Positions 11,240-61,162 of a stretch of 64,000 bases of DNA are shown here, piece by piece. The stretch lies in UHGV virus genome UHGV-0036582; one strand, written 5' to 3'. This DNA is from a virus. The translations under genes were made by a program, and so were the position numbers. Numbering within the stretch: position 1 is the stretch's first letter; each line of letters starts with the position of its first letter. Below the pieces are notes generated by a model that was not told the origin of the DNA, searched no databases, and saw only the letters and a program-made list of their open reading frames with translations.

Positions 11240-12814
11240 ATGGAATTGAACGACAAACAAATTAAGGATCTGGTGGCGCGACGCCACCCGGAATACGAAA
11301 AGAAAAAAGAACATTGGGACTTCCTCGCCAGCACTTACGCTGGCGGGCGTGGTTGGTTTACAGACAATATCTTTCGTTACTTTAAAGAGGGAGATCAGGA
11401 GTTTAAGGAGCGAGTTGAGCGTGCTTATCGCTTCAACCACACTCGTGAGGTGGTAAACCTCATCAACAAATATCTCTTTAAAGAAGACATTCATAGAAAT
11501 ATCGAAGAGGCACCAGAGCAGATCCGCAATTTCTGGAAACGTGCGACTCGCCAGAATGCCTCTATTGACTCATTTATGGCCGCTATTGATTTGCAGTCGT
11601 CTATTTACGGTCGCATATGGGTTGTTGTCGATAGCACGATGAGTGGTGATGTTGAGTCAGTAGCTGACGAGAAAAAGAAAGATGCTCGCGCCTACGCCTA
11701 CTGGATTTCACCTCAGCAAATGCTGGATGTGACATGGGACGACGACGGGAATATGTTGTGGGCGTTAATTGTGGAAGTCGCTCGTGATGACGCAGATCCT
11801 TTTACTTCTACAGGTCAGGAATACCAACGTTATCGTCTGTGGACACAAAACGAGTGGTATCTGTTCCGTGAGGAAGTGAAGAAGGGCGCTGGTGGAGCAG
11901 GTCGCCGTCAGGCAAAAGTTATTTTAGAGGATAGCGGTGAGCATAATCTCGGCGTAGTTCCTGTGTTTCCTGTTGATTGTATTGGAGAAAGTGAATCACC
12001 GTATTTCAGCCCATCGTTGATCGATGATATCGCTTATCTTGATCGTGCGGTTGCAAACTATCTGTCAAACCTTGATGCCATTATTCAGGATCAGACATTT
12101 AGCCAGTTGGCTATACCGGTACAGTCGCTTTTACCTGGTGATGAAAACCACACTAAAGTGCTTGAAATGGGCACAAAGCGAGTCTTCACCTACGATTCTG
12201 AAGGTGGAAACCAGCCGTTTTATCTGTCACCAGACCCGAAACAAGCTCAGATGATCATCACTACGATTAAGACGGTGATTAACGAAATCTACCATTCAGT
12301 TGGTGTAGCTGGTGAGCGAACGAAGCAGGACAACGCACAGGGAATCGATAATTCATCTGGTGCCGCAAAAATGTATGACTTCCAGCGTGTAAATAGCTTG
12401 CTTGTCACAAAAGCAGAGCGTCTGGAAAGGGCTGAACGCCAAATCATGCTACTGGTTGCGAAATGGATGGGGGTAGATCTGGACGAAGACCACTCTTTAA
12501 TTGCGTATCCAGAAAGTTTCGATATTCGTGGCCTTACTGATGAATTTTCTGTTGCCGAGAAACTGTCATTACTTCAGGCACCGGACTCTGTACGTCGTCA
12601 CCAGATGGAAATGCTTATTGAGAAGATTTTCCCGAACATTACTGAGGCGATGAAAAAGGAATTTGATAAAGATCTCTTGAATTTTCCTCCAAAAAATGAT
12701 CTAAATACCCTTGAAAATAAGTCAGTACTTACTTATGATCGTGGTGCAGCCCAAGAAAGCGGGCAAGATCAACCCCGAGGGAATGGGGACTCATCTACTC
12801 AAGAGAACGAGTGA
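11240..12814 (+). CDS. portal protein
   Basis: 524-aa ORF immediately after terL; size and position typical of portal. Confidence 0.7.
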   Translation: MELNDKQIKDLVARRHPEYEKKKEHWDFLASTYAGGRGWFTDNIFRYFKEGDQEFKERVERAYRFNHTREVVNLINKYLFKEDIHRNIEEAPEQIRNFWKRATRQNASIDSFMAAIDLQSSIYGRIWVVVDSTMSGDVESVADEKKKDARAYAYWISPQQMLDVTWDDDGNMLWALIVEVARDDADPFTSTGQEYQRYRLWTQNEWYLFREEVKKGAGGAGRRQAKVILEDSGEHNLGVVPVFPVDCIGESESPYFSPSLIDDIAYLDRAVANYLSNLDAIIQDQTFSQLAIPVQSLLPGDENHTKVLEMGTKRVFTYDSEGGNQPFYLSPDPKQAQMIITTIKTVINEIYHSVGVAGERTKQDNAQGIDNSSGAAKMYDFQRVNSLLVTKAERLERAERQIMLLVAKWMGVDLDEDHSLIAYPESFDIRGLTDEFSVAEKLSLLQAPDSVRRHQMEMLIEKIFPNITEAMKKEFDKDLLNFPPKNDLNTLENKSVLTYDRGAAQESGQDQPRGNGDSSTQENE

Positions 12815-45097: not shown

Positions 45098-45278
45098 TTT
45101 TGGATTTTCACAAGATGGTTAGGTGGTTGTGGCTACTCGGTGTAAGGCTTTGTAATCACCGATTGGTAAGGTTACTTCAATTTAGCTTAACTGTCAGCAT
45201 ACCCAATCGCCGAAAAGATAAGTAGATGATTACTTATTGGTGTGTAAGAATACTGCCATCTGTTAGCTAGGAGTTGGT

Positions 45279-46599: not shown

Positions 46600-47918
46600 A
46601 AAAGTTGATCGCACTTAAGCATAAGCTGGACGAAATGAAAGCTATGGGAACCAATGCAAAAAAAGAGGCATTGGCCAACATGGATGACTTCGAGCAAAGC
46701 ATGGTTTCATTGATGCTCAACCCTTTCATCCGTTTTGGGGTAAAGAAATACAAAGTGGCAGAGCCGCTTAGTGAGTCCGTCCCAAGTGACGAAAAAGCCA
46801 TTGATGTACTGAATAAGCTGGCCTCTCGCGAGCTGACGGGGAACGCAGCAATAGCTGCTGTTGAGTCTATCGTGGCGTCAATGTGCGCCGATGGGCAGGA
46901 CGTGTTCCGTCGTTTCCTCTTAAAAGACCCGAAAGCGGGTGTTGGGATTAGCCTATGCAACAAGGTTTTTGAAAATCCCATTCCGAAATTCGAGGTGCAG
47001 CTGGCGTCACCGTATAAAGAAAAAGGCGACAAATACCCCTTCAAGCCAAACCCTAAAGCAAAATGGCCGATGATTGGCAGCCTTAAGCTCGATGGTTTGC
47101 GAGTAATTTGCGAGGTTATTGTTGACGAAGAAGAGGTTAACTTCCTTTCTCGTACTGGTAATCCAATCACGTCTCTCGATCACCTAAAGCCAGCCATGCT
47201 CGAATTAGGCAAACTTTCAGGCCACAAACACATCTTCTTCGATGGTGAAGGCACAGCCGGTTCATTTAACCAGTCCGTATCTGCATTGCGCAAAAAGAAC
47301 GTGCAGGCAATTGGCGCTATTTATCATGTTTTCGACTTCTTCCTACCGGAATGGCGAGCACAGGCTAAATCCAAAGAGTATGCAAAGACAGGTATGAAGC
47401 TGAAAGAGCGCCTGGCTATGCTCGTGGCGTTGTTCAAAAACGATCGCAGTGAAGGCTACGCACAAGACATTCACCTGCATCCGTTCTACATCATCCATAG
47501 CCACGAAGACTTCATCGAACGCTTCATGAAACGCCTGGACGATAACGAAGAAGGGGAGATGGGCAAAGATCCGAACTCTGTTTACGAGTTTAAACGTACC
47601 CGCAGCTGGTGGAAGTTAAAAGACGAAGATTCAGAAGATGGTGAAATTATCGATTTTGAGCCGGGCGACCCGGACTCTGGTTTTGCCAACACGCTTGGGA
47701 AAATTGTTATTCGTCTTGAAAACGGCGTCATCGTTCGTGCGAGCGGCATTAAGCATAAATATCTGGACGAGATCTGGAACAACAAAGAGAAGTACCGTGG
47801 TCGTATTGTCGAGGTTCATTGTCACGAGAAAACACCTGATGGCAGCTTACGCCACCCACGACTGAAATGGCCGCGTTGCTTACGCGATACCGAAGATCGA
47901 ATCGGAGATAAAGAATGA
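46596..47918 (+). CDS. ATP-dependent DNA ligase
   Basis: Nucleotidyltransferase motif I K-x-D-G-x-R in SLKLDGLRV. Confidence 0.65.
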   Translation: MKKLIALKHKLDEMKAMGTNAKKEALANMDDFEQSMVSLMLNPFIRFGVKKYKVAEPLSESVPSDEKAIDVLNKLASRELTGNAAIAAVESIVASMCADGQDVFRRFLLKDPKAGVGISLCNKVFENPIPKFEVQLASPYKEKGDKYPFKPNPKAKWPMIGSLKLDGLRVICEVIVDEEEVNFLSRTGNPITSLDHLKPAMLELGKLSGHKHIFFDGEGTAGSFNQSVSALRKKNVQAIGAIYHVFDFFLPEWRAQAKSKEYAKTGMKLKERLAMLVALFKNDRSEGYAQDIHLHPFYIIHSHEDFIERFMKRLDDNEEGEMGKDPNSVYEFKRTRSWWKLKDEDSEDGEIIDFEPGDPDSGFANTLGKIVIRLENGVIVRASGIKHKYLDEIWNNKEKYRGRIVEVHCHEKTPDGSLRHPRLKWPRCLRDTEDRIGDKE

Positions 47919-48130
47919 TCGTATTAAGTAAACGGGAGAAAGAAACGCTTCATGAAATAAGTAAGTGGCCGGAGTTCCCTGAGTACTGGAAGCCTAAAAC
48001 GCGAGCTAAGTTAGAGCGTTTAGGGTTGGTTGCAAACGTTTCTGAAACGTGGTGCTCGGCCAACTACCAGTTAACTGATAAAGGGAAATTATTGCTACAG
48101 CAATTAGTAGAATCAGGAGCCTTTAAATGA
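47915..48130 (+). CDS. hypothetical small protein
   Basis: 71-aa ORF coupled to ligase gene. Confidence 0.35.
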   Translation: MIVLSKREKETLHEISKWPEFPEYWKPKTRAKLERLGLVANVSETWCSANYQLTDKGKLLLQQLVESGAFK

Positions 48131-48275
48131 TTCCATACATCTCATTAGCTTTTATGGCTGGCTTCCTTATCGGCTTCGGCATCTGTCGTGATTTGATTAA
48201 GCAGGAACTTAAAACCAAAACACTGTGCATCGGGAAGCGTGTGTATCGGGTAGTTCATGAAACAAAGGTGAGAAA

Positions 48276-48566
48276 ATGAGTAATTTAACTTCTTGGGAAT
48301 GGTGGTTGGCAACCTATTTTATGGCAGCCGGAGTCGCATTCGCTTTTTACGTAGGGCAGTTAGTCGTAAAACTGCTGCTGATTAAATTTGCTAGCCATAA
48401 ACGTATTGATGATGGCCTGTGGCGTCTTGGTACCCTTGTGGAAACTCGCTACGGGCAACTTAATGAGAACGAAACCATTACTATCCAAGCGAAACGATTC
48501 ACTGCCACGATCACAAGAACACCTGATCGTAGAGTGGCCTTGATCAAAAAAGTCACAACCGAATAA
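48276..48566 (+). CDS. small membrane protein
   Basis: N-terminal TM WWLATYFMAAGVAFAFYVG. Confidence 0.4.
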   Translation: MSNLTSWEWWLATYFMAAGVAFAFYVGQLVVKLLLIKFASHKRIDDGLWRLGTLVETRYGQLNENETITIQAKRFTATITRTPDRRVALIKKVTTE

Positions 48567-48801
48567 AAACATCTCGATAAGTATTTACTTACTTATCTTT
48601 TATGTATAAGATGACTTTGTTTTCGTTGAGACGCGACTGTTTGAACTTAAATACAAGTGCAAACGAAGAAGTCTATCTGGCAGTAGCCTAATAAGCCAAA
48701 CACCAGCGAGGTCAGTTTCCAGCCTCGTTACCGAAATGGGACACACTGAGCGAGTGTGATTGCAGAACGCAGGAGGGAACATTCATGTTCCCTCCGATGA
48801 A

Positions 48802-48880
48802 GTAACAGAATGGGCGGTTGGTATATTTTCAACTCCATATGACTCCCGGATTCTTAGCCACTGACCGCCCATCCTGTTAC
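48802..48880. repeat. long-range inverted repeat (17-bp arms, 45-nt spacer) in tRNA leader
   Basis: GTAACAGAATGGGCGGT vs ACCGCCCATCCTGTTAC (16 of 17 complementary); enclosed by further hairpins (GGAGGGAACAT / ATGTTCCCTCC at 48771-48794). Confidence 0.55.
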
Positions 48881-48956
48881 GTCATTTTGTTCAATTATGT
48901 CGTTTATACTGGGTTAAAAAGCGGCGACGTAGCCCGGCTGGTATGGTTAGCCAGCA

Positions 48957-49079
48957 CACAACGTTGAGGCCATTACATTTTTATCAATTCTAAGGTTCTA
49001 TTCACAGAGATACCGGCGAGCGTTGATATGTAACATGTTGGGCAAACATTCAATCGGAGTAGTGGCCTCAACGTTGTGA
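48957..49079. repeat. long-range inverted repeat (16-bp arms, 91-nt spacer) in tRNA leader
   Basis: CACAACGTTGAGGCCA at 48957-48972 vs GTGGCCTCAACGTTGTG at 49063-49079. Confidence 0.55.
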
Positions 49080-49342
49080 AGACGGGATTGTTGTGTAGGT
49101 TTAACCACTGTTGCCATTGGTGCCTGTTTTCACAACAAATGATTCCATACATCACATTGTATAAATTACAAAGTAGGTGCTGTCCTCAGAAACATCATCT
49201 ACTTAAAGATTTTGCCTTCTATTGAGCGAAGTCGAAAACGTCTGGCACTAACGGAAAGTGCAAGTAGCGGTGCGTTTCCTGGCAGAAACTAACACCGCCG
49301 CGATTGGCACTGTTGAGTAATAAATACTGGCAGTGCTGAATT

Positions 49343-49417
49343 GATGGTGTAGCTCAGCGGTAGAGCAGTTGGCTGTTAACCAACTGGTCGGTGGTTCGAA
49401 TCCACCCACCATCGCCA
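49343..49417 (+). tRNA. tRNA-Asn (anticodon GTT)
   Basis: Cloverleaf folded by hand: acceptor GATGGTG/CACCATC, D-stem GCTC/GAGC, anticodon stem GTTGG/CCAAC with loop CTGTTAA, T-arm GGTGG-TTCGAAT-CCACC, 3' GCCA. Confidence 0.85.
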
Positions 49418-49422
49418 ATTTA

Positions 49423-49509
49423 GGGGAGTTAGTCCGTAGGGGCAGCGGGGTAGACTGTAAATCTACTGTCATTGCGACTCGGGTGGTTCGACTCCATCAC
49501 TCCCCACCA
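49423..49509 (+). tRNA. tRNA-Tyr (anticodon GTA), long variable arm
   Basis: Acceptor GGGGAGT/ACTCCCC, anticodon stem GTAGA/TCTAC with loop CTGTAAA, long variable arm, T-arm GGTGG-TTCGACT-CCATC, 3' ACCA; D-arm pairing irregular. Confidence 0.6.
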
Positions 49510-49513
49510 AATT

Positions 49514-49589
49514 GCCGGTTTAGCTCAGTTGGTAGAGCGCCTGCCTTGTAAGCAGGATGTCAGCGGTTCGAGTCCGCTAACCGGCACCA
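49514..49589 (+). tRNA. tRNA-Thr (anticodon TGT)
   Basis: Acceptor GCCGGTT/AACCGGC, D-stem GCTC/GAGC, anticodon stem CCTGC/GCAGG with loop CTTGTAA, T-arm AGCGG-TTCGAGT-CCGCT, 3' ACCA. Confidence 0.85.
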
Positions 49590-49813
49590 ATACAACGATA
49601 AGATCATTACGGTTAATCGTCGTTCATGTGCACAATGACTGGTCGAAAGGTAGTGATCTTACCGTTGTGGTGGATTCGCAGACTGATGCGATAGCTTTCT
49701 TGGATGTTAGGGAAATGCGGCCGCAAATCTTCCCTTTCGCGAGCGGTGATCGTCCGTAGTCCTAATTGGCTGCACCGTATGCCGGAGATTCAGTACCGGC
49801 CACCACAACGGCC

Positions 49814-49900
49814 GGAGAGTAGGGAGCATGGTGCTCAAGCGGTCTTGAAAACCGTCCCATTGCGCAAGCGATGATGGTTCGATTCCATTACTCTCCGCCA
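49814..49900 (+). tRNA. tRNA-Ser (anticodon TGA), long variable arm
   Basis: Acceptor GGAGAGT/ACTCTCC, D-stem GAGC/GCTC, anticodon loop CTTGAAA, long variable arm, T-loop TTCGATT, 3' GCCA. Confidence 0.7.
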
Positions 49901-49902
49901 GA

Positions 49903-49980
49903 CACAGCGTTGAGCGGTTTGGCCTTTTAATCAACTCGATTAAGACTCCGCTAACATAAACCAGACCGCTCAACGCTGTG
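49903..49980. repeat. 16-bp perfect inverted repeat directly after tRNA-Ser
   Basis: CACAGCGTTGAGCGGT vs ACCGCTCAACGCTGTG with 46-nt spacer; arms resemble those of the 48957/49064 repeat. Confidence 0.6.
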
Positions 49981-50054
49981 ATAGACAATTACGGCAGACG
50001 TTCTTAACCATAGCTTGCTAACATCCTAGCAACACTTTTTTCAGCGCAAAATTC

Positions 50055-50078
50055 AAAGGGGCTTCGGCCCCTTTTTTG
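50055..50078. terminator. bidirectional intrinsic terminator
   Basis: AAA-GGGGC-TTCG-GCCCC-TTTTTT; ends both the tRNA transcript and the convergent minus-strand gene. Confidence 0.85.
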
Positions 50079-50092
50079 TTGAACAGTGCAAT

Positions 50093-51355
50093 TTACTTTG
50101 CATAGTCGCCCAATTTTAATATTTCGCGCTTATATTCATTAACCATGCTACTGGATTCAGTATAAATTCGATTTAAAAGATTATCGTTATCTTTATTTTC
50201 ATTTATCTTAATTAGTGCTAATTTATATTCATAGTCATCAAATGCCACAATTAAATGGTGGCCTGGGATTATATCTTCGTCACTCTTAAAGTATATATCT
50301 TCAAGTATGTAATCTAGTTGATTAGATTTTCTTTTCTCGATGTAATCTTCAGCCATAGCTATTACATCATTCCTGTCATTTAACCTGTTTTTTTCGGAAG
50401 GCACATCTTCGTAATGTTGCACGATTGAACAACCAATAAGGCGTGGGATGTAAACGTCAAAATGAGTAACTCTATCATTCGCGGTTTTAAGTAGTTCCTC
50501 AAAGTAGTTTCTTACATGTAAAGGCAACTTCTCAAAGTAATCATTAATTATAGGAGAACAAGGAGTTTTATAATTCATAAGAACCGACGGTACGAGCTTT
50601 GGGTGTCGAAACATCCAGTCCCTTTTAACGTCCGATGGAACATAATAACTTTTAATGATATTATCAAAATAATTTATCATTCGAGATTTGAATATTTTGT
50701 TGAATCTAAGGTTTATGAATGTATCCAGATAAGGCATATTTGAATAAGCATCATCAAAAAATATTTCATCATTGAAAAAATCATATTTATTCAATAAACA
50801 ACACAGTTTTTCCGAATTAATATGTTCACAATAATCGATTTTTAATCCAAAGATAGCAATGATCAACTTCATCTGAGGTGGGATTTTAAAAATTAATTGT
50901 GACACATACGCTCTTTTTTCCTTGAGACATTCCCCATCAATATAAAATGAACCATCCACATACTCAAATATATTAATAATATGCTTCACATACTGTATTA
51001 CCTCATGCTGTCTTACCAATGGATAATATAGTCTATGTAACTCATCGCTGTTTAAATTAATTTTGTGTTTATCGATAATTTGTTTTGCAAGAAGACATAA
51101 CTCATCATGTTGATTTAATAAGGAATCAAACCATTGTTTAAATGCACTCTTTCGCATTTCGAACAATGATTCAGTTGTTAATTGAAGGGCTGAAAAAGCT
51201 GCTTTTGCACTTTTTCTCGCTTCGTAGGCATTCCATGCTGTTGCTATAAAAGCAAATGCTGTAGCCAATGTTCCAACAGTTTGACCATTTAAAACAACCC
51301 AATCCCAAAAAATGACGGTGAGCAGTAGTATAATAATGAAAATTAAAAAAGGCAT
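50093..51355 (-). CDS. AT-rich moron: membrane-anchored protein of unknown function (candidate exclusion/abortive-infection factor)
   Basis: 420 aa; N-terminal hydrophobic segments (FLIFIIILLLTVIFWDWVV, VGTLATAFAFIATAW); hand-counted GC about 20-28 percent in sampled lines versus about 50 percent in structural genes; opposite strand to flanking genes. Confidence 0.6.
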   Translation of the reverse strand: MPFLIFIIILLLTVIFWDWVVLNGQTVGTLATAFAFIATAWNAYEARKSAKAAFSALQLTTESLFEMRKSAFKQWFDSLLNQHDELCLLAKQIIDKHKINLNSDELHRLYYPLVRQHEVIQYVKHIINIFEYVDGSFYIDGECLKEKRAYVSQLIFKIPPQMKLIIAIFGLKIDYCEHINSEKLCCLLNKYDFFNDEIFFDDAYSNMPYLDTFINLRFNKIFKSRMINYFDNIIKSYYVPSDVKRDWMFRHPKLVPSVLMNYKTPCSPIINDYFEKLPLHVRNYFEELLKTANDRVTHFDVYIPRLIGCSIVQHYEDVPSEKNRLNDRNDVIAMAEDYIEKRKSNQLDYILEDIYFKSDEDIIPGHHLIVAFDDYEYKLALIKINENKDNDNLLNRIYTESSSMVNEYKREILKLGDYAK

Positions 51356-51529
51356 GTATGTATTTCACTCTACTAACTATAAAATATTAGGCTAATGTTA
51401 ACCAAACAATGCCTTAATTAATAGATTGATCGAGGCTTTAATAGCTTTATAATGCAGACTGTAAAGATAAGTATGCACATACCTATCTTCTTTGTAAGTA
51501 AAGTTGCATATCAATTCTATGAGGTAACA

Positions 51530-51775
51530 ATGACGATCACTATCTACGGACGAGATAACTGCTCATACTGCAAACGTGCGGTCGAGCTGGCGAAGCAACT
51601 AAAGGGACATGGCTACGGTGATTATGAGTACATCGACATCACCACTGCCGGTATCGACAAGGAAAAACTAAGTGAAATTGTTGGTAAACCGGTAGAGACT
51701 ATCCCCCAAGTGCTGATCGATGGCCAACCGATTGGCGGATACACAGAACTGGCTGCATACGTCAGCACCCTCTGA
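51530..51775 (+). CDS. glutaredoxin (NrdC-like)
   Basis: ITIYGRDNCSYCKRA CxxC active site; C-terminal PQVLIDGQPIGGY; ATG 51530 after GAGGTAA RBS. Confidence 0.75.
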   Translation: MTITIYGRDNCSYCKRAVELAKQLKGHGYGDYEYIDITTAGIDKEKLSEIVGKPVETIPQVLIDGQPIGGYTELAAYVSTL

Positions 51776-51780
51776 TTTTA

Positions 51781-51805
51781 ACGGCTCACAGGAGCCGTTT
51801 TTATT
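51781..51805 (+). terminator. intrinsic terminator after glutaredoxin gene
   Basis: ACGGCTC-ACAG-GAGCCGT followed by TTTTATT. Confidence 0.8.
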
Positions 51806-51854
51806 CCCACCAAACTCACTCCCGTTTCCCTTAAAATTCAAAAAACAACGTCAA

Positions 51855-51887
51855 AATGATTCCATACCTACTATGTATGGAATCATT
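51855..51887. promoter_or_regulatory. 12-bp perfect inverted repeat upstream of recombinase gene
   Basis: AATGATTCCATA-cctactatg-TATGGAATCATT; left arm is the third copy of the AAATGATTCCATAC repeat. Confidence 0.5.
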
Positions 51888-51985
51888 GCTGAAAATGAGT
51901 TACTTTTACTCTTGATCCTATAAGAATCTATGCCTAATATACTGTTTACTTATACAGTGCATCGGCGTAACTCGGTGATTGTCAT

Positions 51986-53089
51986 ATGAAAAATAGCTTT
52001 GACAGAGCACGCGCTGCGGAGAACACCTCAAAAGAGGCGATAGAGTATCTCGAAAGAGCATCTCAAATGCAGGCCGTTATGATCTCCCAGGTCAGCAATG
52101 ACATGAGATTCTCGGACGCATTCATGTTATTCACTCGCTTATCTCTGCTGATAACCAGACGTCGGCCAGAGATCGCTGTTCATTGTATTTTGATACATGT
52201 TTTGCCGCACCTTGCCGATGTAAAAGTAAGTGACATTAATAGGTTCATGGTGAACCAACTGGTCAACCCACTAATACTGGATGGCAAAATTGTTATGGGC
52301 CGCCGCGTTTTCTCTCTGATGAAGCAGTTCCTTAGCTGGTGCGCCTTCCAGGGGATGATAGACGTGTCACCGTTAAACGATATGTCACTTAACAATGTTG
52401 CCGGTGGCGCAAAGCCCACACCTCGCGAGCGGAAGCTGACCGACGCAGAGGTATGGGTGTTCTGGAATATATGGGACTACTTCAATGTGTGCGCTGGTAC
52501 AAAATGGGCGGCCAGGCTATGTCTTGTATCCGCAAGACGACCTGACGAAGTACTGCGGGCTAAAAAAAGTGAGTTCAACCTCCAGCGTGGGGTTTGGAAT
52601 CAAGGCAAGAGAAACAAATCAGCCCGTGAGCATTCTCTGCCTTTAAGCACATTAATGCGCACATGCATTGAAGAGTTATTCGAATATGGTAAAGGCAGCC
52701 AGTGGCTTGTGCCTTCGAATAAAAAAATCGGGAATGATCTTCCGATGTCTAAAGTGGCAATAGCCCAGGCATTACGCCGTATCCTGGAACGACCAGAACT
52801 GATGGAGCTTGAGCCATTTACACCCCGAGATTTGCGTCGTACTGCGCGTAGTTACTTCCCAGCATTAGGCATAAGCCAGGAGGTATCACGCAAAATCATG
52901 AACCACAGTCTTGAGGGGATAGATCGGGTCTACGACCGGCACGATTATATGGACGAGATGCGAGACGCCTTAGAAAGTTTCTCGACGTACATCGCATCAA
53001 TCGTAGAGCAACCGGATTTAGACGAAATTGACCACAAATTCAAGGGAGATCGTCTATCAACAGAGCTTATTCGTGTAAATTTTTCATAG
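51986..53089 (+). CDS. tyrosine recombinase / phage integrase family
   Basis: C-terminal catalytic block PRDLRRTARS ... MNHS ... VYDRHDY (Arg/His/Tyr positions of the tyrosine recombinase fold); 367 aa. Confidence 0.7.
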   Translation: MKNSFDRARAAENTSKEAIEYLERASQMQAVMISQVSNDMRFSDAFMLFTRLSLLITRRRPEIAVHCILIHVLPHLADVKVSDINRFMVNQLVNPLILDGKIVMGRRVFSLMKQFLSWCAFQGMIDVSPLNDMSLNNVAGGAKPTPRERKLTDAEVWVFWNIWDYFNVCAGTKWAARLCLVSARRPDEVLRAKKSEFNLQRGVWNQGKRNKSAREHSLPLSTLMRTCIEELFEYGKGSQWLVPSNKKIGNDLPMSKVAIAQALRRILERPELMELEPFTPRDLRRTARSYFPALGISQEVSRKIMNHSLEGIDRVYDRHDYMDEMRDALESFSTYIASIVEQPDLDEIDHKFKGDRLSTELIRVNFS

Positions 53090-53470
53090 AGACTTTATGG
53101 CCTCAACAACCTTTTGTGATGCGCCTTTCTCTTTACCGAATCGCTCGTTATATGCAGCAAGAACCTGTTTTTCGTCCTCGTTAAGAGGCGCAGTGCCTTC
53201 TTTGTATAAAAATGCTGCGAGTTCAGGTTGGCGTTCTTCCAGCACCATCATCATAAGACGACTTGGCTCAATACCCAGCGCCAGCGCCAGCGGACGAACC
53301 TTATCGATAGGCAAAGGAATTTTGCCACTTTTAATTAAAGAAAGGTTGTTGGCATTTTTATAACCAATAAGTCTAGCTATTTGGGCCTGACTCATAGGTG
53401 AGGATTCAATCAGCCCTGCGATAAAAGCAGCATAGCGACTTTCTATAAATTCAATCTTGTTGTCAGACAT
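53084..53470 (-). CDS. XRE-family HTH transcriptional regulator (repressor-like)
   Basis: SQAQIARLIGYKNANNLSLIKSGK helix-turn-helix; no peptidase domain; convergent with recombinase, divergent from downstream operon. Confidence 0.7.
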   Translation of the reverse strand: MSDNKIEFIESRYAAFIAGLIESSPMSQAQIARLIGYKNANNLSLIKSGKIPLPIDKVRPLALALGIEPSRLMMMVLEERQPELAAFLYKEGTAPLNEDEKQVLAAYNERFGKEKGASQKVVEAIKSL

Positions 53471-53501: not shown

Positions 53502-53515
53502 GGTAAGTGCTTACC
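53502..53515. promoter_or_regulatory. GGTAAG...CTTACC palindrome in divergent promoter region
   Basis: GGTAAGTGCTTACC; further GGTAAG/CTTACC half-sites at about 53617 and 53685. Confidence 0.45.
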
Positions 53516-53721
53516 GATATTACATCAAAGGTTAGGGTTGTAAAGCTATTATCATTTTTTTCGGCAGGCACTTGTAAGACCGAGCAAAGGCCCACGCATG
53601 GAGAAAAACTAGCCCAAAATAGGTAAGAAAATTAACTTGCATCTGATATGGATGTATTCAGTATTGATATAATTTTTAGTAGTATTCCTTACCATAGTAT
53701 AAGTTAGAATGGATTGATTGA

Positions 53722-56132: not shown

Positions 56133-56227
56133 ACAAAACAGCCTTAATGATAAGTAACCACTTACGATAGATAATGATATATTTATATAAGAAGTTGAAC
56201 GCTCATTAGAGAACAAAGGAAAAACGC

Positions 56228-57465: not shown

Positions 57466-57669
57466 GTGCGTAAAGGATGTTTCGGCTCTCTTATCGCTGC
57501 TTCTGAAACTGGTAAGGCTTGTCTGGTGTGTCCAGACAAGCCCGATTGTCACCAATCAGCAAAAGAAGTTGCGATTTCGATGCATGGGAAGTTCGTAGGC
57601 TTCCCCAATGACAAAATCAAAAAAACCAGAAAGGTAAAAACACATGAAGGCACTGATGGTTCGAACTGA
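57466..57669 (+). CDS. small Cys-rich (zinc-finger-like) protein
   Basis: 67 aa with C..C...C..C..C spacing; overlaps start of DnaE gene. Confidence 0.3.
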   Translation: MRKGCFGSLIAASETGKACLVCPDKPDCHQSAKEVAISMHGKFVGFPNDKIKKTRKVKTHEGTDGSN

Positions 57670-60600
57670 CTTCTCACTTGGGGAGTCGGCTCTAAAAGCA
57701 GAAAACGCGGTGAAGATTGCCAGAGAAGCTGGCTACACCGCTGTAATTTCAGCAGATAGCATGAATATTGCGAGCGTTATTCCACTACAACGTGCCGCTG
57801 GTGACGACATGGCGGTTATTTGTGGTGTGAAACTAAACATTGTTGATGATCCCACATACGAGCACCGGGCTAAACTTGCTAAAGAATCTATGAGATGTAT
57901 GGAATCATTAGAGCGGGGACGTAACTACTCGTTTACCGCTCTAATTAAAAATGAGCAAGGATATCGCGACATCTGCGAACTAATGACGGTGGCCAACACA
58001 CGAGAACAGTTCTACTTTGTACCGCGTCTCTCGCTCGAACAGTTGGTTTCTACATATGCCAAAGGCAACATCATCCTGCTCACTTCCGACATCGGTAGCG
58101 TGTTCCAACGCAACGATTTTGCAAAAATCATAAGCTCACTGATTACAGCGGGCGGGAAAGACAACTTCTATAGCGTGGTTTATCCGCACCCTACCCCATT
58201 CTACGACCAGATTAACGTCCGAGCGATGAAAGTAGCCAGCGCACTGAAAATAGAGCCAGTAGCGTTCTATCCCGCTTATTACGAATCGATCGACGATGCA
58301 GACATTAAAGACATTGCGCACATGGTTACGAACAACATAAAAATCGACCAGCCGCATCGTCTGCGTATCCCCCACCAGCGAGATAACGCCATCAATGGTC
58401 GTCGCCATCTCCTTGAGGCGCTTAAAGCCTTCTCCGTTCGCATGGATGTGCCGGTAACAGCTGCAATGGCCTCAACAACGCAGGACTCCATTATCGATGC
58501 CTGCACATGGCGCTGGCATGAATTGCCACCAGCACTGCCCAAGATGGCAGACGACGAACCTGCAACGCTGATGAAACTGGCTGTTGCAGGGCTGCGTAAA
58601 CGTCTTACCACAAAAGAGTTTGGATACACACCACCTGCTTCTGAGAACAGGGTTTATGTTGAGCGGCTAAAGTACGAAATGGACACGCTGACTCGCCTGG
58701 GATTCTGTGGTTACTTCCTGATGGTACGCGATCTGATGAATCACAGCCGTGAAACTGGCATTCCTGTCGGGCCTGGTCGTGGTTCCTCTGCCGGTTCTCT
58801 GGTGGCGTGGTGCATAGGCATAACCAACGTCGACCCAATCCGTCACGGTCTTCTGTTTGAGCGTTTCATCAACCCTGAGCGTCTCGACTTGCCGGATGCG
58901 GACTTGGACTTCAGCCAGGCACGTCGCCATGAGGTGATCGAGTATCTGAATGAACGCTACGGCGAAGATTACGTTGCAGGCATTCCGAACTTCACCTACC
59001 TGGGCGCAGCCTCTGCACTACGTGACACCGCTCGTATTTATGGTGTGGAGTCCGCAGATATGGCGGTATCAAAAGAACTGAAGAACGTCGAGGATGATAG
59101 CCTTCCATTGGAAGAGCTGCGCGAACAACTGGCAAGTCTCGACAAATACGCAACAAAATATCCTGATGCATTCAATGCAGCCTGCAAGTTACAAAGCCTT
59201 ATGCGTGGCTTTGGTAGACATGCGGCAGGGATGATCGTAGCAGGTGTTCCTCTGACAGAACGTACACCGGTTGAACGCCGTGGTGACGCGCGTTGTATCG
59301 CATTTGACAAGCGTTACTGCGAGGCTATGGGCCTAATTAAGCTGGACGTACTTGGTCTGGCAACTCTCGATTTGCTCGATAGTGCAAAACGCTACATAAA
59401 AGAGAACACAGGTGAAGATATCAATCTTGATGCCATTTCTCTTGAAGATCGCAAGGTGCTGGATGGTTTTGCTGCTGGGTACACTCAAGGTGTTTTCCAG
59501 CTTGAATCAGGCCCAATGCGCAAGCTGCTTAAAGATTTAGGTGGTGGAATTGAGCCAATGAGCTTTAAAACGGTTGTTGCTACGACTGCGCTCTTCCGGC
59601 CGGGTCCAATTCAGTCAGGCATGTTGGATGACTATGTTTCTGTAGCCAAAGGCTTTATGACGCCGGAATCATTACACCCCGTTCTTGATGAACTTACCGC
59701 AGAAACAAATGGCGTGATTCTCTATCAGGAACAGACGATGAACGCGACTCGATTGCTTGCTGGCTTCACAATGGCTGAAGCTGACGGCGTTCGTAAAGCG
59801 ATCGGCAAAAAAGACATGGAAAAAATGAAGAGCATGGGCGAGAAGTTCATCGTTCAGGCTCAAGCTGGCTGGATAGACGTTGAGCTGGAAGATGGCACTA
59901 CACAGCGCATTCACCGTGCGGAACATTTTAAATGCGAAGACGGAACTCTGAAAACTGTCGAAGAGGCACTTGAGTACGGCGCAAAACTACCTATAAACGC
60001 AGTACGCGTTACAGCGTCACATCCAGGGCTATCAGAGATGAAAGCGAAGGAGATCTGGACCGCATTCGAAAAGAATGGTGCCTACCAGTTCAACAAATCA
60101 CACTCTGTTGCTTACTCCTTAATCAGTTATCAATCTATGTGGTTGAAAACTCATTATCCCGCGGAGTTCTTCGCTGCTGCTCTCACTATTCTTGGCGAAG
60201 ATAAACACCAGGGGCTGGTTAAAGATGCGCTGACCTATGGTATTCGCGTATTGCCACCAGACGTTAACGTGTCATCTAACCGAATCGAGATCCGCACGCT
60301 TGAAGATGGCAGCCAGGTGCTGTATGCGCCCTTCTCTGCTGTGAAAGGGTGTTCTGAGAATGGCTGCCAAGCCATCATGAGAGCGCGAGAAAAAGTTGGC
60401 GGCAAATTCGAGTCACTGGCGCAATTCGAAGAAGCTGTCGAGAAACGTGCCTGTAATAGTCGAGTGCGCGAATCACTGCAAAAAGTAGGTGCGTTTGCAT
60501 CCATCGAGCCAGGTAGTCTGCCAGCAACTGATCCAGAGCGTCTCCGCGACCAGGCTGAATTGATGGGAAACCTTGTCATAGACGCAGTTAAAGCCTCACG

Positions 60601-61162
60601 TCCGTTTGAGATGAACCCCAAACGTTCGGCTGAGATTAACGTGCTCATGACACGGATGGCGGCTGAAATGGGATTAGGTGATGAACTAATCCGCCCTAGC
60701 ATTGGCATTAAGCCGAAAATCATGATCATTCTGGACAATGCGAACGGCAATGATGCTCGAACCGGTTACTTTATGGAGAACGGATACGACGACTTTAAGG
60801 CCAAGCTATTGACGGCTGGAGATTTACGCATGGGCGATCTCTATGTCACAGGCGTTTGCAAGAAGGTTAAAGACAAAGAAAAAGACTACACCAAAGACGA
60901 GATCGGCCAGTTCACCGACTTTATACGTGAAGAGATCAATCTGGTGCGTCCGACCTATGTGCTGACGTGTGGCAGCCGGGCAACGGCATTGTTTAACAAC
61001 AAAAACAAGCCATCCGATTTGGTCGGCAGGAAGGAGTACCTTCCAGACCTTGACGTTACTGTCTTTTACGGGTTTAACCCCAACATTCTTTACTTCAGAC
61101 CTGAAGAGGGAGAACGACTAGAAGCGATATTAGCCGACGTAGCAGAAACCATTAAGACGTGA
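57644..61162 (+). CDS. dnaE: DnaE-type DNA polymerase III alpha subunit (PHP + polymerase core)
   Basis: 1172 aa; N-terminal PHP-like region, conserved blocks GFCGYFLMVRDL, GPGRGSSAGSLVAWCIGIT, LDFSQARR, GVFQLESG. Confidence 0.9.
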   Translation: MKALMVRTDFSLGESALKAENAVKIAREAGYTAVISADSMNIASVIPLQRAAGDDMAVICGVKLNIVDDPTYEHRAKLAKESMRCMESLERGRNYSFTALIKNEQGYRDICELMTVANTREQFYFVPRLSLEQLVSTYAKGNIILLTSDIGSVFQRNDFAKIISSLITAGGKDNFYSVVYPHPTPFYDQINVRAMKVASALKIEPVAFYPAYYESIDDADIKDIAHMVTNNIKIDQPHRLRIPHQRDNAINGRRHLLEALKAFSVRMDVPVTAAMASTTQDSIIDACTWRWHELPPALPKMADDEPATLMKLAVAGLRKRLTTKEFGYTPPASENRVYVERLKYEMDTLTRLGFCGYFLMVRDLMNHSRETGIPVGPGRGSSAGSLVAWCIGITNVDPIRHGLLFERFINPERLDLPDADLDFSQARRHEVIEYLNERYGEDYVAGIPNFTYLGAASALRDTARIYGVESADMAVSKELKNVEDDSLPLEELREQLASLDKYATKYPDAFNAACKLQSLMRGFGRHAAGMIVAGVPLTERTPVERRGDARCIAFDKRYCEAMGLIKLDVLGLATLDLLDSAKRYIKENTGEDINLDAISLEDRKVLDGFAAGYTQGVFQLESGPMRKLLKDLGGGIEPMSFKTVVATTALFRPGPIQSGMLDDYVSVAKGFMTPESLHPVLDELTAETNGVILYQEQTMNATRLLAGFTMAEADGVRKAIGKKDMEKMKSMGEKFIVQAQAGWIDVELEDGTTQRIHRAEHFKCEDGTLKTVEEALEYGAKLPINAVRVTASHPGLSEMKAKEIWTAFEKNGAYQFNKSHSVAYSLISYQSMWLKTHYPAEFFAAALTILGEDKHQGLVKDALTYGIRVLPPDVNVSSNRIEIRTLEDGSQVLYAPFSAVKGCSENGCQAIMRAREKVGGKFESLAQFEEAVEKRACNSRVRESLQKVGAFASIEPGSLPATDPERLRDQAELMGNLVIDAVKASRPFEMNPKRSAEINVLMTRMAAEMGLGDELIRPSIGIKPKIMIILDNANGNDARTGYFMENGYDDFKAKLLTAGDLRMGDLYVTGVCKKVKDKEKDYTKDEIGQFTDFIREEINLVRPTYVLTCGSRATALFNNKNKPSDLVGRKEYLPDLDVTVFYGFNPNILYFRPEEGERLEAILADVAETIKT

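What the first reader, a model, noticed from the sequence alone, without database searches (positions are those of the whole stretch)
48125..51887. Three copies of a 17-bp sequence (AAATGATTCCATAC[A/C]T) bracketing the tRNA and moron island
AAATGATTCCATACATC occurs at 48125-48141 and 49137-49153, and AAATGATTCCATAC at 51854-51867, where it forms the left arm of a perfect 12-bp palindrome just upstream of the tyrosine recombinase gene. Three exact copies of a 14-mer within 4 kb are not expected by chance. The copies flank the structured leader, four tRNAs, the AT-rich moron and the glutaredoxin. They could be recombinase binding or recombination sites delimiting an acquired cassette, or duplicated promoter or translation-start fragments (each copy contains ATG ATT CCA TAC).
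Basis: seen in the sequence. Interest (0 to 1): 0.6.

Follow-up and report, generated by a model that had tools for sequence, protein, structure and literature searches.

The report
Recombinase site with scattered conserved half-sites
The repeated 14-mer is the arm of a lox-like recombination site that sits in front of a phage-plasmid's tyrosine recombinase gene. Extra single copies of that arm, kept unchanged even inside essential genes, lie within 6 kb on both sides and all point towards the site, which no described recombinase system does.

Summary
The core ATGATTCCATAC occurs five times in the window, not three. Two copies form a perfect 13-7-13 palindrome (51855-51887), about 100 bp upstream of a tyrosine recombinase gene (int). 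The other three are solitary: 48127 (+), 49139 (+) and 57897 (-, inside dnaE). A sixth, decayed copy lies inside int.

The window is an SSU5-like phage-plasmid. About 130 int loci carry a palindrome of this geometry at the same place. Where Int is only 45-52% identical, both arms have changed together to TGACTCCAGAC. Int is the only gene always linked to the palindrome, so the palindrome is very probably Int's crossover site.

The solitary copies share a 15-mer, ATGATTCCATACATC. Only 1 of its 15 columns varies across relatives, while more than half of the flanking columns vary (p = 2e-5 to 6e-4). They have no second arm and no conserved spacer. In a complete 108 kb genome they occur only within about 6 kb of the palindrome, and all point towards it.

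They do not delimit the tRNA and moron island. Its right edge is the palindrome and its left edge is a terminator.

My best reading is that the solitary copies are Int-binding half-sites that do not recombine, with a regulatory or architectural role. The binding and the role are inferred, not shown.

The parts
51855..51887 (.). Core recombination site. It has 13-bp perfect inverted arms (AATGATTCCATAC at 51855-51867 and GTATGGAATCATT at 51875-51887) around a 7-bp asymmetric spacer, CTACTAT (51868-51874).
   Evidence: Sequence read directly. The same 13-7-13 geometry lies upstream of int in about 130 loci. The arms are invariant within the SSU5-like group while the spacer varies by lineage. Both arms co-vary to TGACTCCAGAC in Int homologues of 45-52% identity. 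It is the right boundary of the variable island.
51986..53089 (+). Tyrosine recombinase gene int (367 aa). The protein has a core-binding and a catalytic domain and no arm-binding domain.
   Evidence: Pfam PF00589 scores 38.3 bits against a cut-off of 27.1. PHROG 1 'integrase' matches. The AlphaFold model (pLDDT 82) is closest to lambda Int residues 75-356 and to Tn1549 Int. R184/R185, K211, R284, H307 and Y316 are invariant in alignment A1.
48127..48141 (+). Solitary half-site 1: ATGATTCCATACATC. It overlaps the stop codon of the 71-aa ORF and forms the first five codons (MIPYI) of the 50-aa membrane-peptide ORF 48127..48279.
   Evidence: Among 31 distinct relatives 1 of 15 motif columns varies, against 106 of 180 flank columns (Fisher p = 7e-5).
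49139..49153 (+). Solitary half-site 2: ATGATTCCATACATC. It lies in the non-coding leader about 190 bp upstream of tRNA-Asn.
   Evidence: 1 of 15 motif columns varies, against 96 of 180 flank columns (p = 6e-4). A copy also lies in the corresponding non-coding region, next to a tRNA-like 3' end, in L072, whose Int is 56% identical.
52592..52603 (-). Decayed half-site 5 inside int: TTGATTCCAAAC, over codons V-W-N-Q. It is probably not functional in this lineage.
   Evidence: In the Klebsiella, Salmonella, Yersinia and Kluyvera lineages the same position reads TTGATTCCATACATC, and in L072 it reads CTGATTCCATACATC. The match is partly forced by the invariant residues W204, Q206 and G207.
57894..57908 (-). 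Solitary half-site 6: ATGATTCCATACATC on the minus strand, inside dnaE codons 84-89 (R-C-M-E-S-L).
   Evidence: It lies in a poorly conserved linker of DnaE. The nucleotides are invariant in 48 distinct relatives while the adjacent codons vary: 1 of 15 motif columns against 114 of 180 flank columns (p = 2e-5).
51912..51957 (+). Putative int promoter (TTGATC at 51912-51917, a 17-nt spacer, TAATAT at 51935-51940) overlapped by a LexA-type box, CTGTTTACTTATACAG (51942-51957).
   Evidence: Read from the sequence. The box is conserved in all Enterobacteriaceae SSU5-group loci and absent from the distant loci. The simple promoter scan did not list this promoter: it matches 8 of 12 positions, below the scan's cut-off of 9.

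Best explanation
The palindrome at 51855-51887 is the crossover site of the adjacent tyrosine recombinase Int. The pair is a simple, self-contained, Cre/lox-like module. One Int monomer would bind each 13-bp arm, and strands would be exchanged across the 7-bp spacer. Its likely uses are resolving plasmid multimers and recombining with co-resident elements, which would explain why unrelated DNA abuts its left arm.

The solitary 15-mers (48127+, 49139+, 57894-, and the decayed 52592-) are single-arm copies of the same recognition sequence. Selection on the DNA itself keeps them unchanged. I read them as sites that bind one Int monomer and are not crossover partners. They would act as regulatory or architectural sites that become occupied when Int rises. 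In this lineage int sits behind a LexA-type box, so Int should rise during the SOS response. Once occupied, the sites could block or modulate transcription of the early and replication genes they sit in. Alternatively, they could anchor loops to the palindrome.

What is shown: the anatomy, the conservation, the covariation of the arms with Int, the clustering and the orientation.
What is inferred: that Int binds the solitary sites.
What is speculative: the regulatory or looping role.
For: 1. Int is the binding partner of the palindrome.
- The palindrome lies upstream of int in every SSU5-like locus and in 59 of 62 loci fetched with a diverse Int alignment. The other three carry a degraded version.
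- Both arms change together, from TGATTCCATAC to TGACTCCAGAC, where Int is 45-52% identical.
- In those loci int is the only gene universally present near the palindrome, in 53 of 53. The HTH repressor homologue is absent from most of them.
- The 7-bp spacer varies between lineages while the arms do not. This is typical of tyrosine recombinase core sites.
- The Int fold is lambda-Int-like, with a core-binding and a catalytic domain, and the catalytic residues are conserved.

2. The solitary copies are selected as DNA.
- 1 of 15 motif columns varies against 96-114 of 180 flank columns (p = 7e-5, 6e-4 and 2e-5).
- Synonymous positions are frozen inside the ORF50 and dnaE copies.
- The dnaE copy sits in a linker whose amino acids are otherwise unconserved.

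3. The solitary copies are linked to the palindrome.
- They match the arms exactly over 12-13 bases.
- In the complete 108 kb Cyrano genome all copies lie within a 9.2 kb span around int.
- In every locus the copies on the left are (+) and those on the right are (-), so all point towards the palindrome.

4. The solitary copies are not crossover sites.
- There is no second arm: 0-3 of 12 positions match, by my own comparison with the consensus flanks printed.
- Only the first 3 spacer bases (ATC) are conserved.
- No inversion or deletion junction appears in about 150 loci.

5. Int plausibly acts as a DNA-binding regulator.
- In 27 of 58 distinct distant upstream regions a -10-like hexamer sits a fixed 14 nt beyond the right arm, so the arm overlaps the -35 region of the int promoter.

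6. There is precedent.
- The tyrosine recombinase TnpI binds extra copies of its core motif (DR1, DR2) as non-crossover accessory sites (PMC2847244).
Against: - No binding or recombination data exist for this protein. The motif does not appear in the searchable literature.
- SSU5 itself has no int or palindrome yet keeps the three solitary sites, one with a mismatch. This is weak evidence, because SSU5 is a recent 6.5 kb deletion derivative whose flanks are 96-98% identical to int-bearing relatives.
- More distant SSU5-like elements with TGACTCCAGAC arms (L093, L121, L122) have no solitary copies. The covariation test therefore could not be run on the solitary sites themselves.
- The solitary sites carry A at the first base after the 12-mer core, where the palindrome arms mostly carry C or T. 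They also carry a conserved ATC that the palindrome lacks. A second factor or a different binding mode is therefore possible.
- The sites have no consistent position or orientation relative to promoters or to the direction of transcription (and direct reading). This argues against a simple operator role.
- A monomer bound to an isolated half-site would be expected to bind weakly.
Confidence: 0.6

Rival explanations
1. One reading: the copies are recombination sites that delimit an acquired cassette (leader, tRNAs, moron, glutaredoxin), which Int can excise, insert or invert.
For: The region between the tRNA terminator and the palindrome is hypervariable. At least 7 unrelated left flanks abut the palindrome, while the right flank is constant. 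Homology between lineages resumes within 3 bases of the left arm's first base. This is what site-specific exchange at the palindrome would produce.
Against: - Only one full site exists per genome.
- The solitary copies lack a second arm, and their spacers do not match the palindrome's spacer.
- The island's left boundary, about 50076-50081, is a terminator and not a motif copy.
- The solitary copies are fixed at the same backbone positions whatever the island contains, and two lie inside dnaE and int.
- No recombined junction appears among about 150 loci.
Confidence: 0.1
2. The motif is the operator of a transcription factor, not of Int. This would be like the asymmetric, dispersed C1 operators of phage P1. 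The candidate is the HTH repressor encoded at 53084..53470 (-), or another regulator.
For: The sites are dispersed, asymmetric and about 15 bp long, and one is bivalent (palindromic) next to the immunity region. This resembles the layout of P1 C1 operators (my own knowledge). SSU5 keeps the solitary sites without int.
Against: - The palindrome persists, with co-varying arms, in 53 loci where int is the only shared gene and the repressor homologue is absent.
- SSU5 has also lost the repressor.
- Two 13-bp arms whose centres lie 20 bp apart, around a 7-bp spacer, do not fit a 128-aa HTH dimer.
- A separate inverted-repeat family, AGATAAGTA-N4-6-TACTTATCT, sits at promoter-proximal positions and is a better operator candidate.
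- Three of the sites are inside coding sequence, away from promoters.
Confidence: 0.08
3. The motif acts at the RNA level. Plus-strand transcripts carry AUGAUUCCAUACAUC (at the ORF50 start and in the tRNA leader) and its exact complement (in the int and dnaE mRNAs). A 15-bp RNA duplex could therefore couple their translation or stability.
For: All copies lie in regions likely to be transcribed from the plus strand. One overlaps a start codon. The polarity split, sense on the left and antisense on the right, yields complementary RNA pairs.
Against: - This does not explain why the motif is identical to the arms of a palindrome that co-varies with Int.
- The palindrome lies upstream of the proposed int promoter, so it would not be part of the int mRNA.
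- Nothing in the RNA model predicts clustering around the palindrome.
- No Rfam family matches the region apart from the tRNAs.
Confidence: 0.07
4. The solitary copies are Rci/sfx-like asymmetric crossover sites, with one conserved 12-bp arm, a 7-bp core and a non-specific second arm. Int would use them to invert the segment between a (+) copy and a (-) copy.
For: The anatomy matches sfx sites: a 12-bp conserved arm plus a 7-bp core (PMC11852207). Left and right copies are mutually inverted. In this window the sites at 48127 and 57897 have identical 7-bp cores, ATCTCAT.
Against: - Core identity is not conserved. Examples are ATCCTAT against ATCCTCC in SSU5 and ATCGTAT against ATCCATT in pJN2-26. 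Close relatives of the window also differ at the dnaE site.
- An inversion would split dnaE.
- No inverted arrangement appears in about 150 loci.
- Int is 367 aa with no Pfam match beyond the integrase domains, so an Rci-like extra C-terminal domain is unlikely. I did not examine this directly.
Confidence: 0.07
5. The copies are non-functional relics: scars of old recombination events, duplicated gene-start fragments or chance matches.
For: Two copies begin with ATG ATT CCA TAC ATC, and one of them starts a real ORF.
Against: - Shuffles rule out chance.
- The 15-mer is far more conserved than its flanks at all three sites, across lineages whose flanks are as little as 48-60% identical.
- Scars would decay at the neutral rate.
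- The hybrid-site model predicts reverse-complementary spacers in paired scars, but the spacers are the same in both.
Confidence: 0.03

Closest known systems
Cre/loxP of phage-plasmid P1
   Same: The host element is a phage that persists as a plasmid. A single tyrosine recombinase gene lies next to its own site. The site has two 13-bp perfect inverted arms around a short asymmetric spacer. No accessory arm-type sites are needed (loxP anatomy as described in PMC10250229).
   Different: - The spacer is 7 bp, not 8, so published lox-like site searches that fix an 8-bp spacer would miss it.
- Int has no detectable sequence similarity to Cre or to any PDB chain.
- Its fold is closer to the lambda and Tn1549 integrases than to Cre.
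- int carries a LexA-type box.
- To my knowledge P1 has no dispersed conserved loxP half-sites.
TnpI/IRS of Tn4430 (and Tn5401)
   Same: A tyrosine recombinase binds extra copies of the same motif that forms its core site. These copies are accessory sites where no crossover occurs (PMC2847244).
   Different: DR1 and DR2 lie adjacent to the core site, on one side of it (PMC2847244; the one-sided arrangement is from my own knowledge). Here the extra copies are 0.7-6 kb away, on both sides, pointing inward, and embedded in genes.
Rci/sfx shufflon of plasmid R64
   Same: The sites are asymmetric, with one conserved 12-bp arm, a 7-bp core and a non-conserved second arm (PMC11852207).
   Different: In sfx sites the whole core is conserved and inversions are frequent. 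Here only 3 of the 7 core bases are conserved, no inversions are seen, and the system also has a fully symmetric site.
XerCD/dif with KOPS
   Same: A resolution site is flanked by polar sequence motifs that point towards it from both sides (my own knowledge).
   Different: KOPS are 8-mers bound by FtsK and are unrelated in sequence to the dif arms. There are thousands of them over megabases. Here there are only 3-4 copies, of the arm sequence itself, within 6 kb.
Lambda-type integrases with arm-type sites
   Same: Int's closest solved folds are lambda Int and Tn1549 Int. The 7-bp overlap region is typical of that family (my own knowledge).
   Different: Int has no N-terminal arm-binding domain. 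Its homologues of 26-34% identity carry Pfam PF13356, which this family lacks. The extra sites here have the core-type sequence, not a distinct arm-type sequence.

Membership tests
Tyrosine recombinase (Pfam PF00589, Phage_integrase) | The catalytic-domain profile matches above the curated cut-off. | tested here: met
   38.3 bits against a cut-off of 27.1. PHROG 1 'integrase' matches at E = 5e-46. Foldseek gives probability 1.00 to lambda Int, Tn1549 Int, Xer and IntI.
Tyrosine recombinase (Pfam PF00589, Phage_integrase) | The catalytic residues R, K, H-x-x-R, H/W and the nucleophilic Y are present. | tested here: inconclusive
   R184/R185, K211, R284, H307 and Y316 (9 residues after H307) are invariant in alignment A1. 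The first His of H-x-x-R is an invariant Arg (R281, in 'TPRDLRR'). I assigned these roles by motif, not from a structural superposition.
Simple (Cre/Xer-type) core recombination site | Two inverted recombinase-binding arms flank a 6-8 bp spacer, next to the recombinase gene, and the arms co-vary with the recombinase. | tested here: met
   The 13-7-13 geometry holds in about 130 loci. The arms switch from TGATTCCATAC to TGACTCCAGAC as Int diverges, and the spacer is free to vary.
Simple (Cre/Xer-type) core recombination site | Int binds, cleaves and recombines the site. | not testable with these tools
   This needs EMSA and an in vivo or in vitro recombination assay.
Cre-type recombinase family (by sequence) | Detectable homology to Cre, Dre, Vika and similar enzymes, and a site with an 8-bp spacer. 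| tested here: not met
   phmmer against the PDB, which includes Cre, finds nothing at E <= 0.01. Foldseek ranks Cre 34th, at E about 0.01, behind lambda Int at E = 6e-7. The spacer is 7 bp.
Heterobivalent (lambda/P4-type) integrase | An N-terminal arm-binding domain and distinct arm-type sites. | tested here: not met
   There is no PF13356 or PF09003 hit. Relatives of 26-34% identity do carry PF13356. The first 40 residues of the model form short helices. The extra sites have the core-type sequence.
Rci/sfx-type asymmetric inversion sites | The 7-bp core is conserved in all sites, and inversion polymorphism is seen between inverted copies. | tested here: not met
   Only ATC is conserved. Cores differ between sites and between lineages. 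Gene order is the same in about 150 loci.
TnpI-like accessory binding motifs | Extra copies of the core motif lie adjacent to the core site and shape the synapse. | tested here: not met
   The copies lie 0.7-6 kb from the core, at distances that vary between lineages. The functional analogy, binding without crossover, remains possible.
Repressor operator set (P1 C1-like) | The motif co-occurs with, and depends on, a repressor gene. | tested here: not met
   The palindrome occurs without the repressor homologue in most distant loci, where only int is shared.
Cassette-delimiting recombination sites (pdif-module or integron-like) | Recombination sites sit at both boundaries of the variable module. 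| tested here: not met
   The right boundary is the palindrome. The left boundary is a terminator at about 50076-50081, with no motif.

The most novel reading that the evidence does not exclude
The inward-pointing half-sites would be a new kind of accessory architecture for a tyrosine recombinase. When the SOS response raises Int, a tetramer would hold the palindrome (two arms) together with one left (+) and one right (-) solitary arm. Those two solitary arms together mimic a split full site. The result would be a non-recombining pseudo-synapse that loops out and silences, or insulates, the lysogeny-control and early-replication region. Int would then be a recombinase co-opted as a switch factor in the decision between plasmid maintenance and lytic growth. 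The model explains the orientation rule, the clustering within 6 kb, the roughly equal numbers of sites on each side, and the restriction of both the LexA box and sites 1 and 6 to one lineage.
Probability: 0.15. Interest if true: 0.75.

Novelty: new variant of a known kind. Interest (0 to 1): 0.55.

Why it matters
1. It identifies an uncharacterised, self-contained recombinase and site pair that is widespread on Enterobacterales plasmids and SSU5-like phage-plasmids. The pair has a 7-bp spacer and two natural specificity classes, TGATTCCATAC and TGACTCCAGAC. Published pipelines that look for lox-like sites fix an 8-bp spacer and would miss it. It is therefore a candidate orthogonal tool for genome engineering.

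2. It pins the right edge of the cargo hot-spot of these phage-plasmids to the recombinase site. This suggests how morons, and possibly resistance genes, are swapped between elements.

3. Recombinase half-sites are conserved inside essential genes. One of them fixes five residues (C-M-E-S-L) in an otherwise variable linker of the replicative polymerase. Together with an SOS-type box in front of int, this suggests a recombinase with a second, non-recombination role in a phage-plasmid. That idea is directly testable by ChIP, EMSA and silent recoding.

Tried and rejected
- Second arm: I looked for one beside each solitary copy. At most 3 of 12 positions match the arm, so they are true half-sites (my own comparison with the consensus flanks).
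- Hybrid-site (scar) model: I worked it through by hand. It predicts reverse-complementary spacers in paired scars. The observed spacers are the same in both, so the model fails.
- Covariation at the solitary sites: I searched distant lineages for solitary copies matching their own arm type. Loci with TGACTCCAGAC arms have none, so the test could not be applied. The one suggestive case, TGCCTCCAGAC inside int in three Rahnella loci, overlaps the conserved W-x-Q codons and I did not pursue it.
- Promoter role: I checked whether the solitary sites are promoters or sit at a fixed distance from promoter elements. There is no consistent -10 or -35 geometry (and direct reading).
- Rfam: a scan of 47000-53000 found only the four tRNAs and one insignificant tmRNA-like hit.
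- Literature: searches for the motif, for SSU5 or pHCM2 recombinases and for phage Cyrano found nothing on this site. The supplements of the Cre-type discovery paper are not held.
- Exact 15-mer scan of viral contigs: it returned many single chance hits in unrelated large contigs and was uninformative.
- SSU5 as a natural int knockout: it is a recent 6.5 kb deletion, so its retained sites say little. The deletion junction carries no motif.
- Replication-terminus or fork-trap idea: repA lies only about 14 kb to the right of site 6 in Cyrano, so the palindrome is not opposite the plasmid origin. I did not analyse GC skew, because nearly all genes are on one strand.

Full report
**Observation.**
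The 12-mer core ATGATTCCATAC occurs five times in the window. The two extra copies are 51875-51886 (-) and 57897-57908 (-). No dinucleotide-preserving shuffle of the window reaches that count. The copies at 51855-51867 and 51875-51887 are the two arms of a perfect 13-bp inverted repeat around a 7-bp spacer: AATGATTCCATAC-CTACTAT-GTATGGAATCATT. The other three copies are solitary and share a longer motif, ATGATTCCATACATC. The copies at 48127 and 57897 share 19 bases. A decayed sixth copy, TTGATTCCAAAC, lies at 52592-52603 (-) inside the recombinase gene. Apart from that decayed copy there are no near-copies anywhere else in the 64 kb: the 13-mer has no matches with 1-2 mismatches and the 11-mer core has no other match with up to 1 mismatch.

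**Context.**
The window is an SSU5-like phage-plasmid. The closest records are Escherichia phages CMS-2020a and Cyrano, at about 97% identity. The gene order around the finding is as follows:
- DNA ligase;
- a 71-aa ORF;
- a 50-aa membrane peptide, whose start is site 1;
- a 96-aa ORF;
- a long non-coding leader, which contains site 2;
- four tRNA genes and a terminator;
- a variable island, here an AT-rich 420-aa ORF on the minus strand plus glutaredoxin;
- the palindrome;
- int (51986..53089, 367 aa);
- a convergent HTH repressor-like ORF (53084..53470, minus strand);
- cobT-like genes;
- dnaE (57644..61162), which contains site 6.

**The palindrome is Int's site.**
I fetched 71 loci from viral contigs with the Int protein, 80 with the DnaE N-terminus and 62 from species-representative genomes with an alignment of diverse Int homologues.
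- Every SSU5-like locus that contains int has the 13-7-13 palindrome about 130 bp upstream of it. The arms are invariant. The spacer differs by lineage: CTACTAT, TCCTTAG, CTATTAA, TTGTAAG, TTGGTAG, TTATATA and others.
- Loci whose Int is only 45-52% identical come from Pantoea, Rahnella, Erwinia, Ewingella, Xenorhabdus, Photorhabdus and Morganella. Many are megaplasmids or other plasmids with no SSU5 backbone. They have the same geometry at the same place, but both arms have changed together to [A/G]TGACTCCAGAC.
- In those loci int is the only gene present in all 53. The other large clusters are spurious ORFs that overlap int. The HTH repressor homologue is absent from most of them.

Arms that co-vary with the recombinase, a freely varying spacer, and int as the only constant neighbour are the signature of a simple tyrosine recombinase core site.

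Int itself scores above the PF00589 threshold. R184/R185, K211, R284, H307 and Y316 are invariant, and an invariant Arg replaces the first His of H-x-x-R. The model has pLDDT 82. Its best structural matches are lambda Int residues 75-356 and Tn1549 Int, that is, a core-binding plus a catalytic domain. Cre matches only marginally. phmmer finds no PDB relative. Relatives of 26-34% identity carry the arm-binding domain PF13356, which this family lacks. Int is therefore an integrase-lineage enzyme that has become a 'simple' recombinase. It works like Cre/loxP without belonging to the Cre family.

**The solitary copies are under selection as DNA.**
Across 31, 12 and 48 distinct flank sequences for sites 1, 2 and 6, only 1 of the 15 motif columns varies. 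In the 180 flanking columns, 106, 96 and 114 vary (Fisher p = 7e-5, 6e-4 and 2e-5).

Site 6 lies in a linker of DnaE that is not conserved at the protein level. The window reads KESMRCMESLERGR, where more distant SSU5-like elements read KEKGEELLPIDRDF. The nucleotides GATGTATGGAATCAT are nevertheless frozen while the neighbouring codons change. Here the DNA motif dictates the residues CMESL.

Site 1 likewise freezes the synonymous positions of MIPYI.

In the Klebsiella, Salmonella, Yersinia and Kluyvera lineages, and in L072 (Int 56% identical), the copy inside int is a good match that includes the ATC extension. It has decayed in the E. coli lineage of this window. That match is partly forced by the invariant residues W204, Q206 and G207.

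**The solitary copies are tied to the palindrome but are not crossover partners.**
In the complete 108 kb Cyrano genome every copy lies within a 9.2 kb span around int. In every locus examined, the copies to the left are on the plus strand and those to the right on the minus strand, so all point towards the palindrome.

None has a second arm: 0-3 of 12 positions match, by my comparison with the consensus flanks. Only the first three 'spacer' bases (ATC) are conserved. The rest differ between sites and lineages, and from the palindrome's spacer. The identical ATCTCAT at 48127 and 57897 in this window is not conserved even among close relatives. Gene order is the same in about 150 loci, so there is no sign of inversion or deletion between copies.

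The distance from site 2 to the palindrome ranges from 1.2 to 6.7 kb. No fixed geometry is therefore required.

**The island.**
Pairwise comparisons with eleven relatives show that the variable island begins after the tRNA terminator, at about 50076-50081. It ends at the palindrome: in nine of the comparisons homology resumes at 51852-51855, the first base of the left arm or up to 3 bases before it. At least seven unrelated sequences abut the left arm, while the right flank, which holds the int promoter, is constant.

This is what recombination at the palindrome between elements with different left-hand DNA would leave behind. The arms and spacer are shared, so the visible break falls at the outer edge of the arm. 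It is wrong for the solitary copies.

**Clues to what the half-sites do.**
In 27 of 58 distinct distant upstream regions, a -10-like hexamer (TAGAAT, TAAAAT or TATATT) sits a fixed 14 nt beyond the right arm. The arm then overlaps the -35 region of the int promoter, which suggests that Int represses its own gene.

In the Enterobacteriaceae SSU5 group the int promoter has been rebuilt: TTGATC, 17 nt, TAATAT, overlapped by a LexA-type box, CTGTTTACTTATACAG (51942-51957). The box is conserved in all loci of that group and absent from the distant loci. Sites 1 and 6 are confined to the same group. L072, which lacks the box, has only the tRNA-side copy and the int-internal copy. Int is therefore probably SOS-inducible exactly where most of the half-sites occur.

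A lone half-site should bind a monomer more weakly than the cooperative palindrome does. The half-sites would then fill only when Int is abundant.

I therefore favour the reading that they are binding sites where no crossover occurs, through which induced Int acts on the genes it sits in (the 50-aa membrane peptide, the tRNA leader, int itself and dnaE) or forms loops to the palindrome. TnpI, which binds extra copies of its core motif as accessory sites, is a precedent for binding without crossover (PMC2847244). Those sites, however, lie adjacent to the core.

The orientation rule is not explained by the direction of transcription. Sites 1 and 2 are on the sense strand and sites 5 and 6 on the antisense strand. 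The rule is defined relative to the palindrome, which hints at a physical interaction. I rate a pseudo-synapse holding the palindrome, one left arm and one right arm as the most novel reading that the evidence does not exclude.

**Rivals.**
- A repressor operator is unlikely, because the palindrome persists without the repressor. A different inverted repeat, AGATAAGTA-N4-6-TACTTATCT, occupies promoter-proximal positions at 45216, 48576 and 51465. A related GGTAAGTGCTTACC lies in the repressor/cro-like intergenic region. This family is the better operator candidate.
- An RNA-pairing role does not explain the identity with Int's arms.
- Rci/sfx-like inversion sites share the anatomy of a 12-bp arm and a 7-bp core (PMC11852207). 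However, the core is not conserved here and no inversions are seen.
- Relics or chance matches are excluded by the conservation statistics.
- SSU5 lacks int yet keeps the sites. SSU5 is a recent 6.5 kb deletion of the island, int and repressor segment from an element whose flanks are 96-98% identical to relatives that keep int. This says little either way.

**Limits.**
Nothing here shows binding or catalysis. The covariation test could be applied to the palindrome only, because lineages with the other arm type have no solitary copies. The role assigned to the half-sites is inference.

**Verdict.**
The palindrome with int is a new member of the class of simple tyrosine recombinase modules. The dispersed, inward-pointing, strongly conserved half-sites are a variant that I could not find described in the searchable literature.

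Noticed in passing
window 45216-45240, 48576-48597, 51465-51488, 56149-56157; related repeat at 53503-53516: A second, unrelated inverted-repeat family, AGATAAGTA-N4-6-TACTTATC(T), sits just upstream of ORF 45279, the tRNA leader, the glutaredoxin ORF and ORF 56228. A similar GGTAAGTGCTTACC lies between the HTH repressor-like ORF and the divergent 70-aa ORF. It is probably the operator set of the repressor/cro-like pair.
   Followed up: partly
window 51912-51957: A LexA-type box, CTGTTTACTTATACAG, overlaps the -10 of a TTGATC-N17-TAATAT promoter in front of int. It is conserved in all Enterobacteriaceae SSU5-group loci and absent from distant int loci. It implies that the recombinase is SOS-inducible.
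   Followed up: partly
window 53084-53089: int (+) and the HTH repressor-like gene (-) converge and overlap by 6 bp. SOS-induced int transcription would run antisense into the repressor gene, which is a possible induction mechanism for a repressor too small (128 aa) to carry a cleavage domain.
   Followed up: no
window 51868-51874 and the homologous position in L063/L064, L078/L081 and L085/L086: The asymmetric 7-bp spacer is found in both orientations relative to int among close relatives (CTATTAA and TTAATAG). The spacer alone seems to flip, perhaps by template switching at the palindrome.
   Followed up: no
window 51851-51853 and 51889-51891: The two or three bases just outside each arm are hypervariable among otherwise nearly identical genomes. 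The left side reads caaa, ctaa, ctca, taca or ccca, and the right side reads tgct, tact, tagt or tcgt. I have no explanation for this.
   Followed up: no
window 50076-51854: This is the hot-spot for variable cargo. The left edge is the tRNA terminator (50055-50081) and the right edge is the palindrome. Contents differ widely between relatives: PhoH, an N4 gp49-like gene, hypothetical genes, or the AT-rich 420-aa ORF here.
   Followed up: partly
L002 (SSU5) 12643-12666, compared with L080 5427-11973: Phage SSU5 lacks a 6.5 kb segment containing the island, the palindrome, int, the repressor and the 70-aa ORF. Its flanks are 96-98% identical to relatives that keep the segment. SSU5 has no int homologue anywhere in its genome. 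This fits SSU5 being a derivative that has lost its lysogeny module.
   Followed up: partly
window 48580-49340: A long, conserved non-coding leader lies between the 96-aa ORF and tRNA-Asn. It has a weak, insignificant tmRNA-like Rfam hit at 48640-48742. The tRNA-Ser at 49814-49900 scores just under the tRNA-Sec gathering threshold. Its nature is unresolved.
   Followed up: no
L094-L096, position 10583 (-): In three Rahnella loci with TGACTCCAGAC arms, the position inside int reads TGCCTCCAGAC, one mismatch from their own arm type. This hints that the int-internal copy co-varies with the arms, but it overlaps the conserved W-x-Q codons.
   Followed up: no
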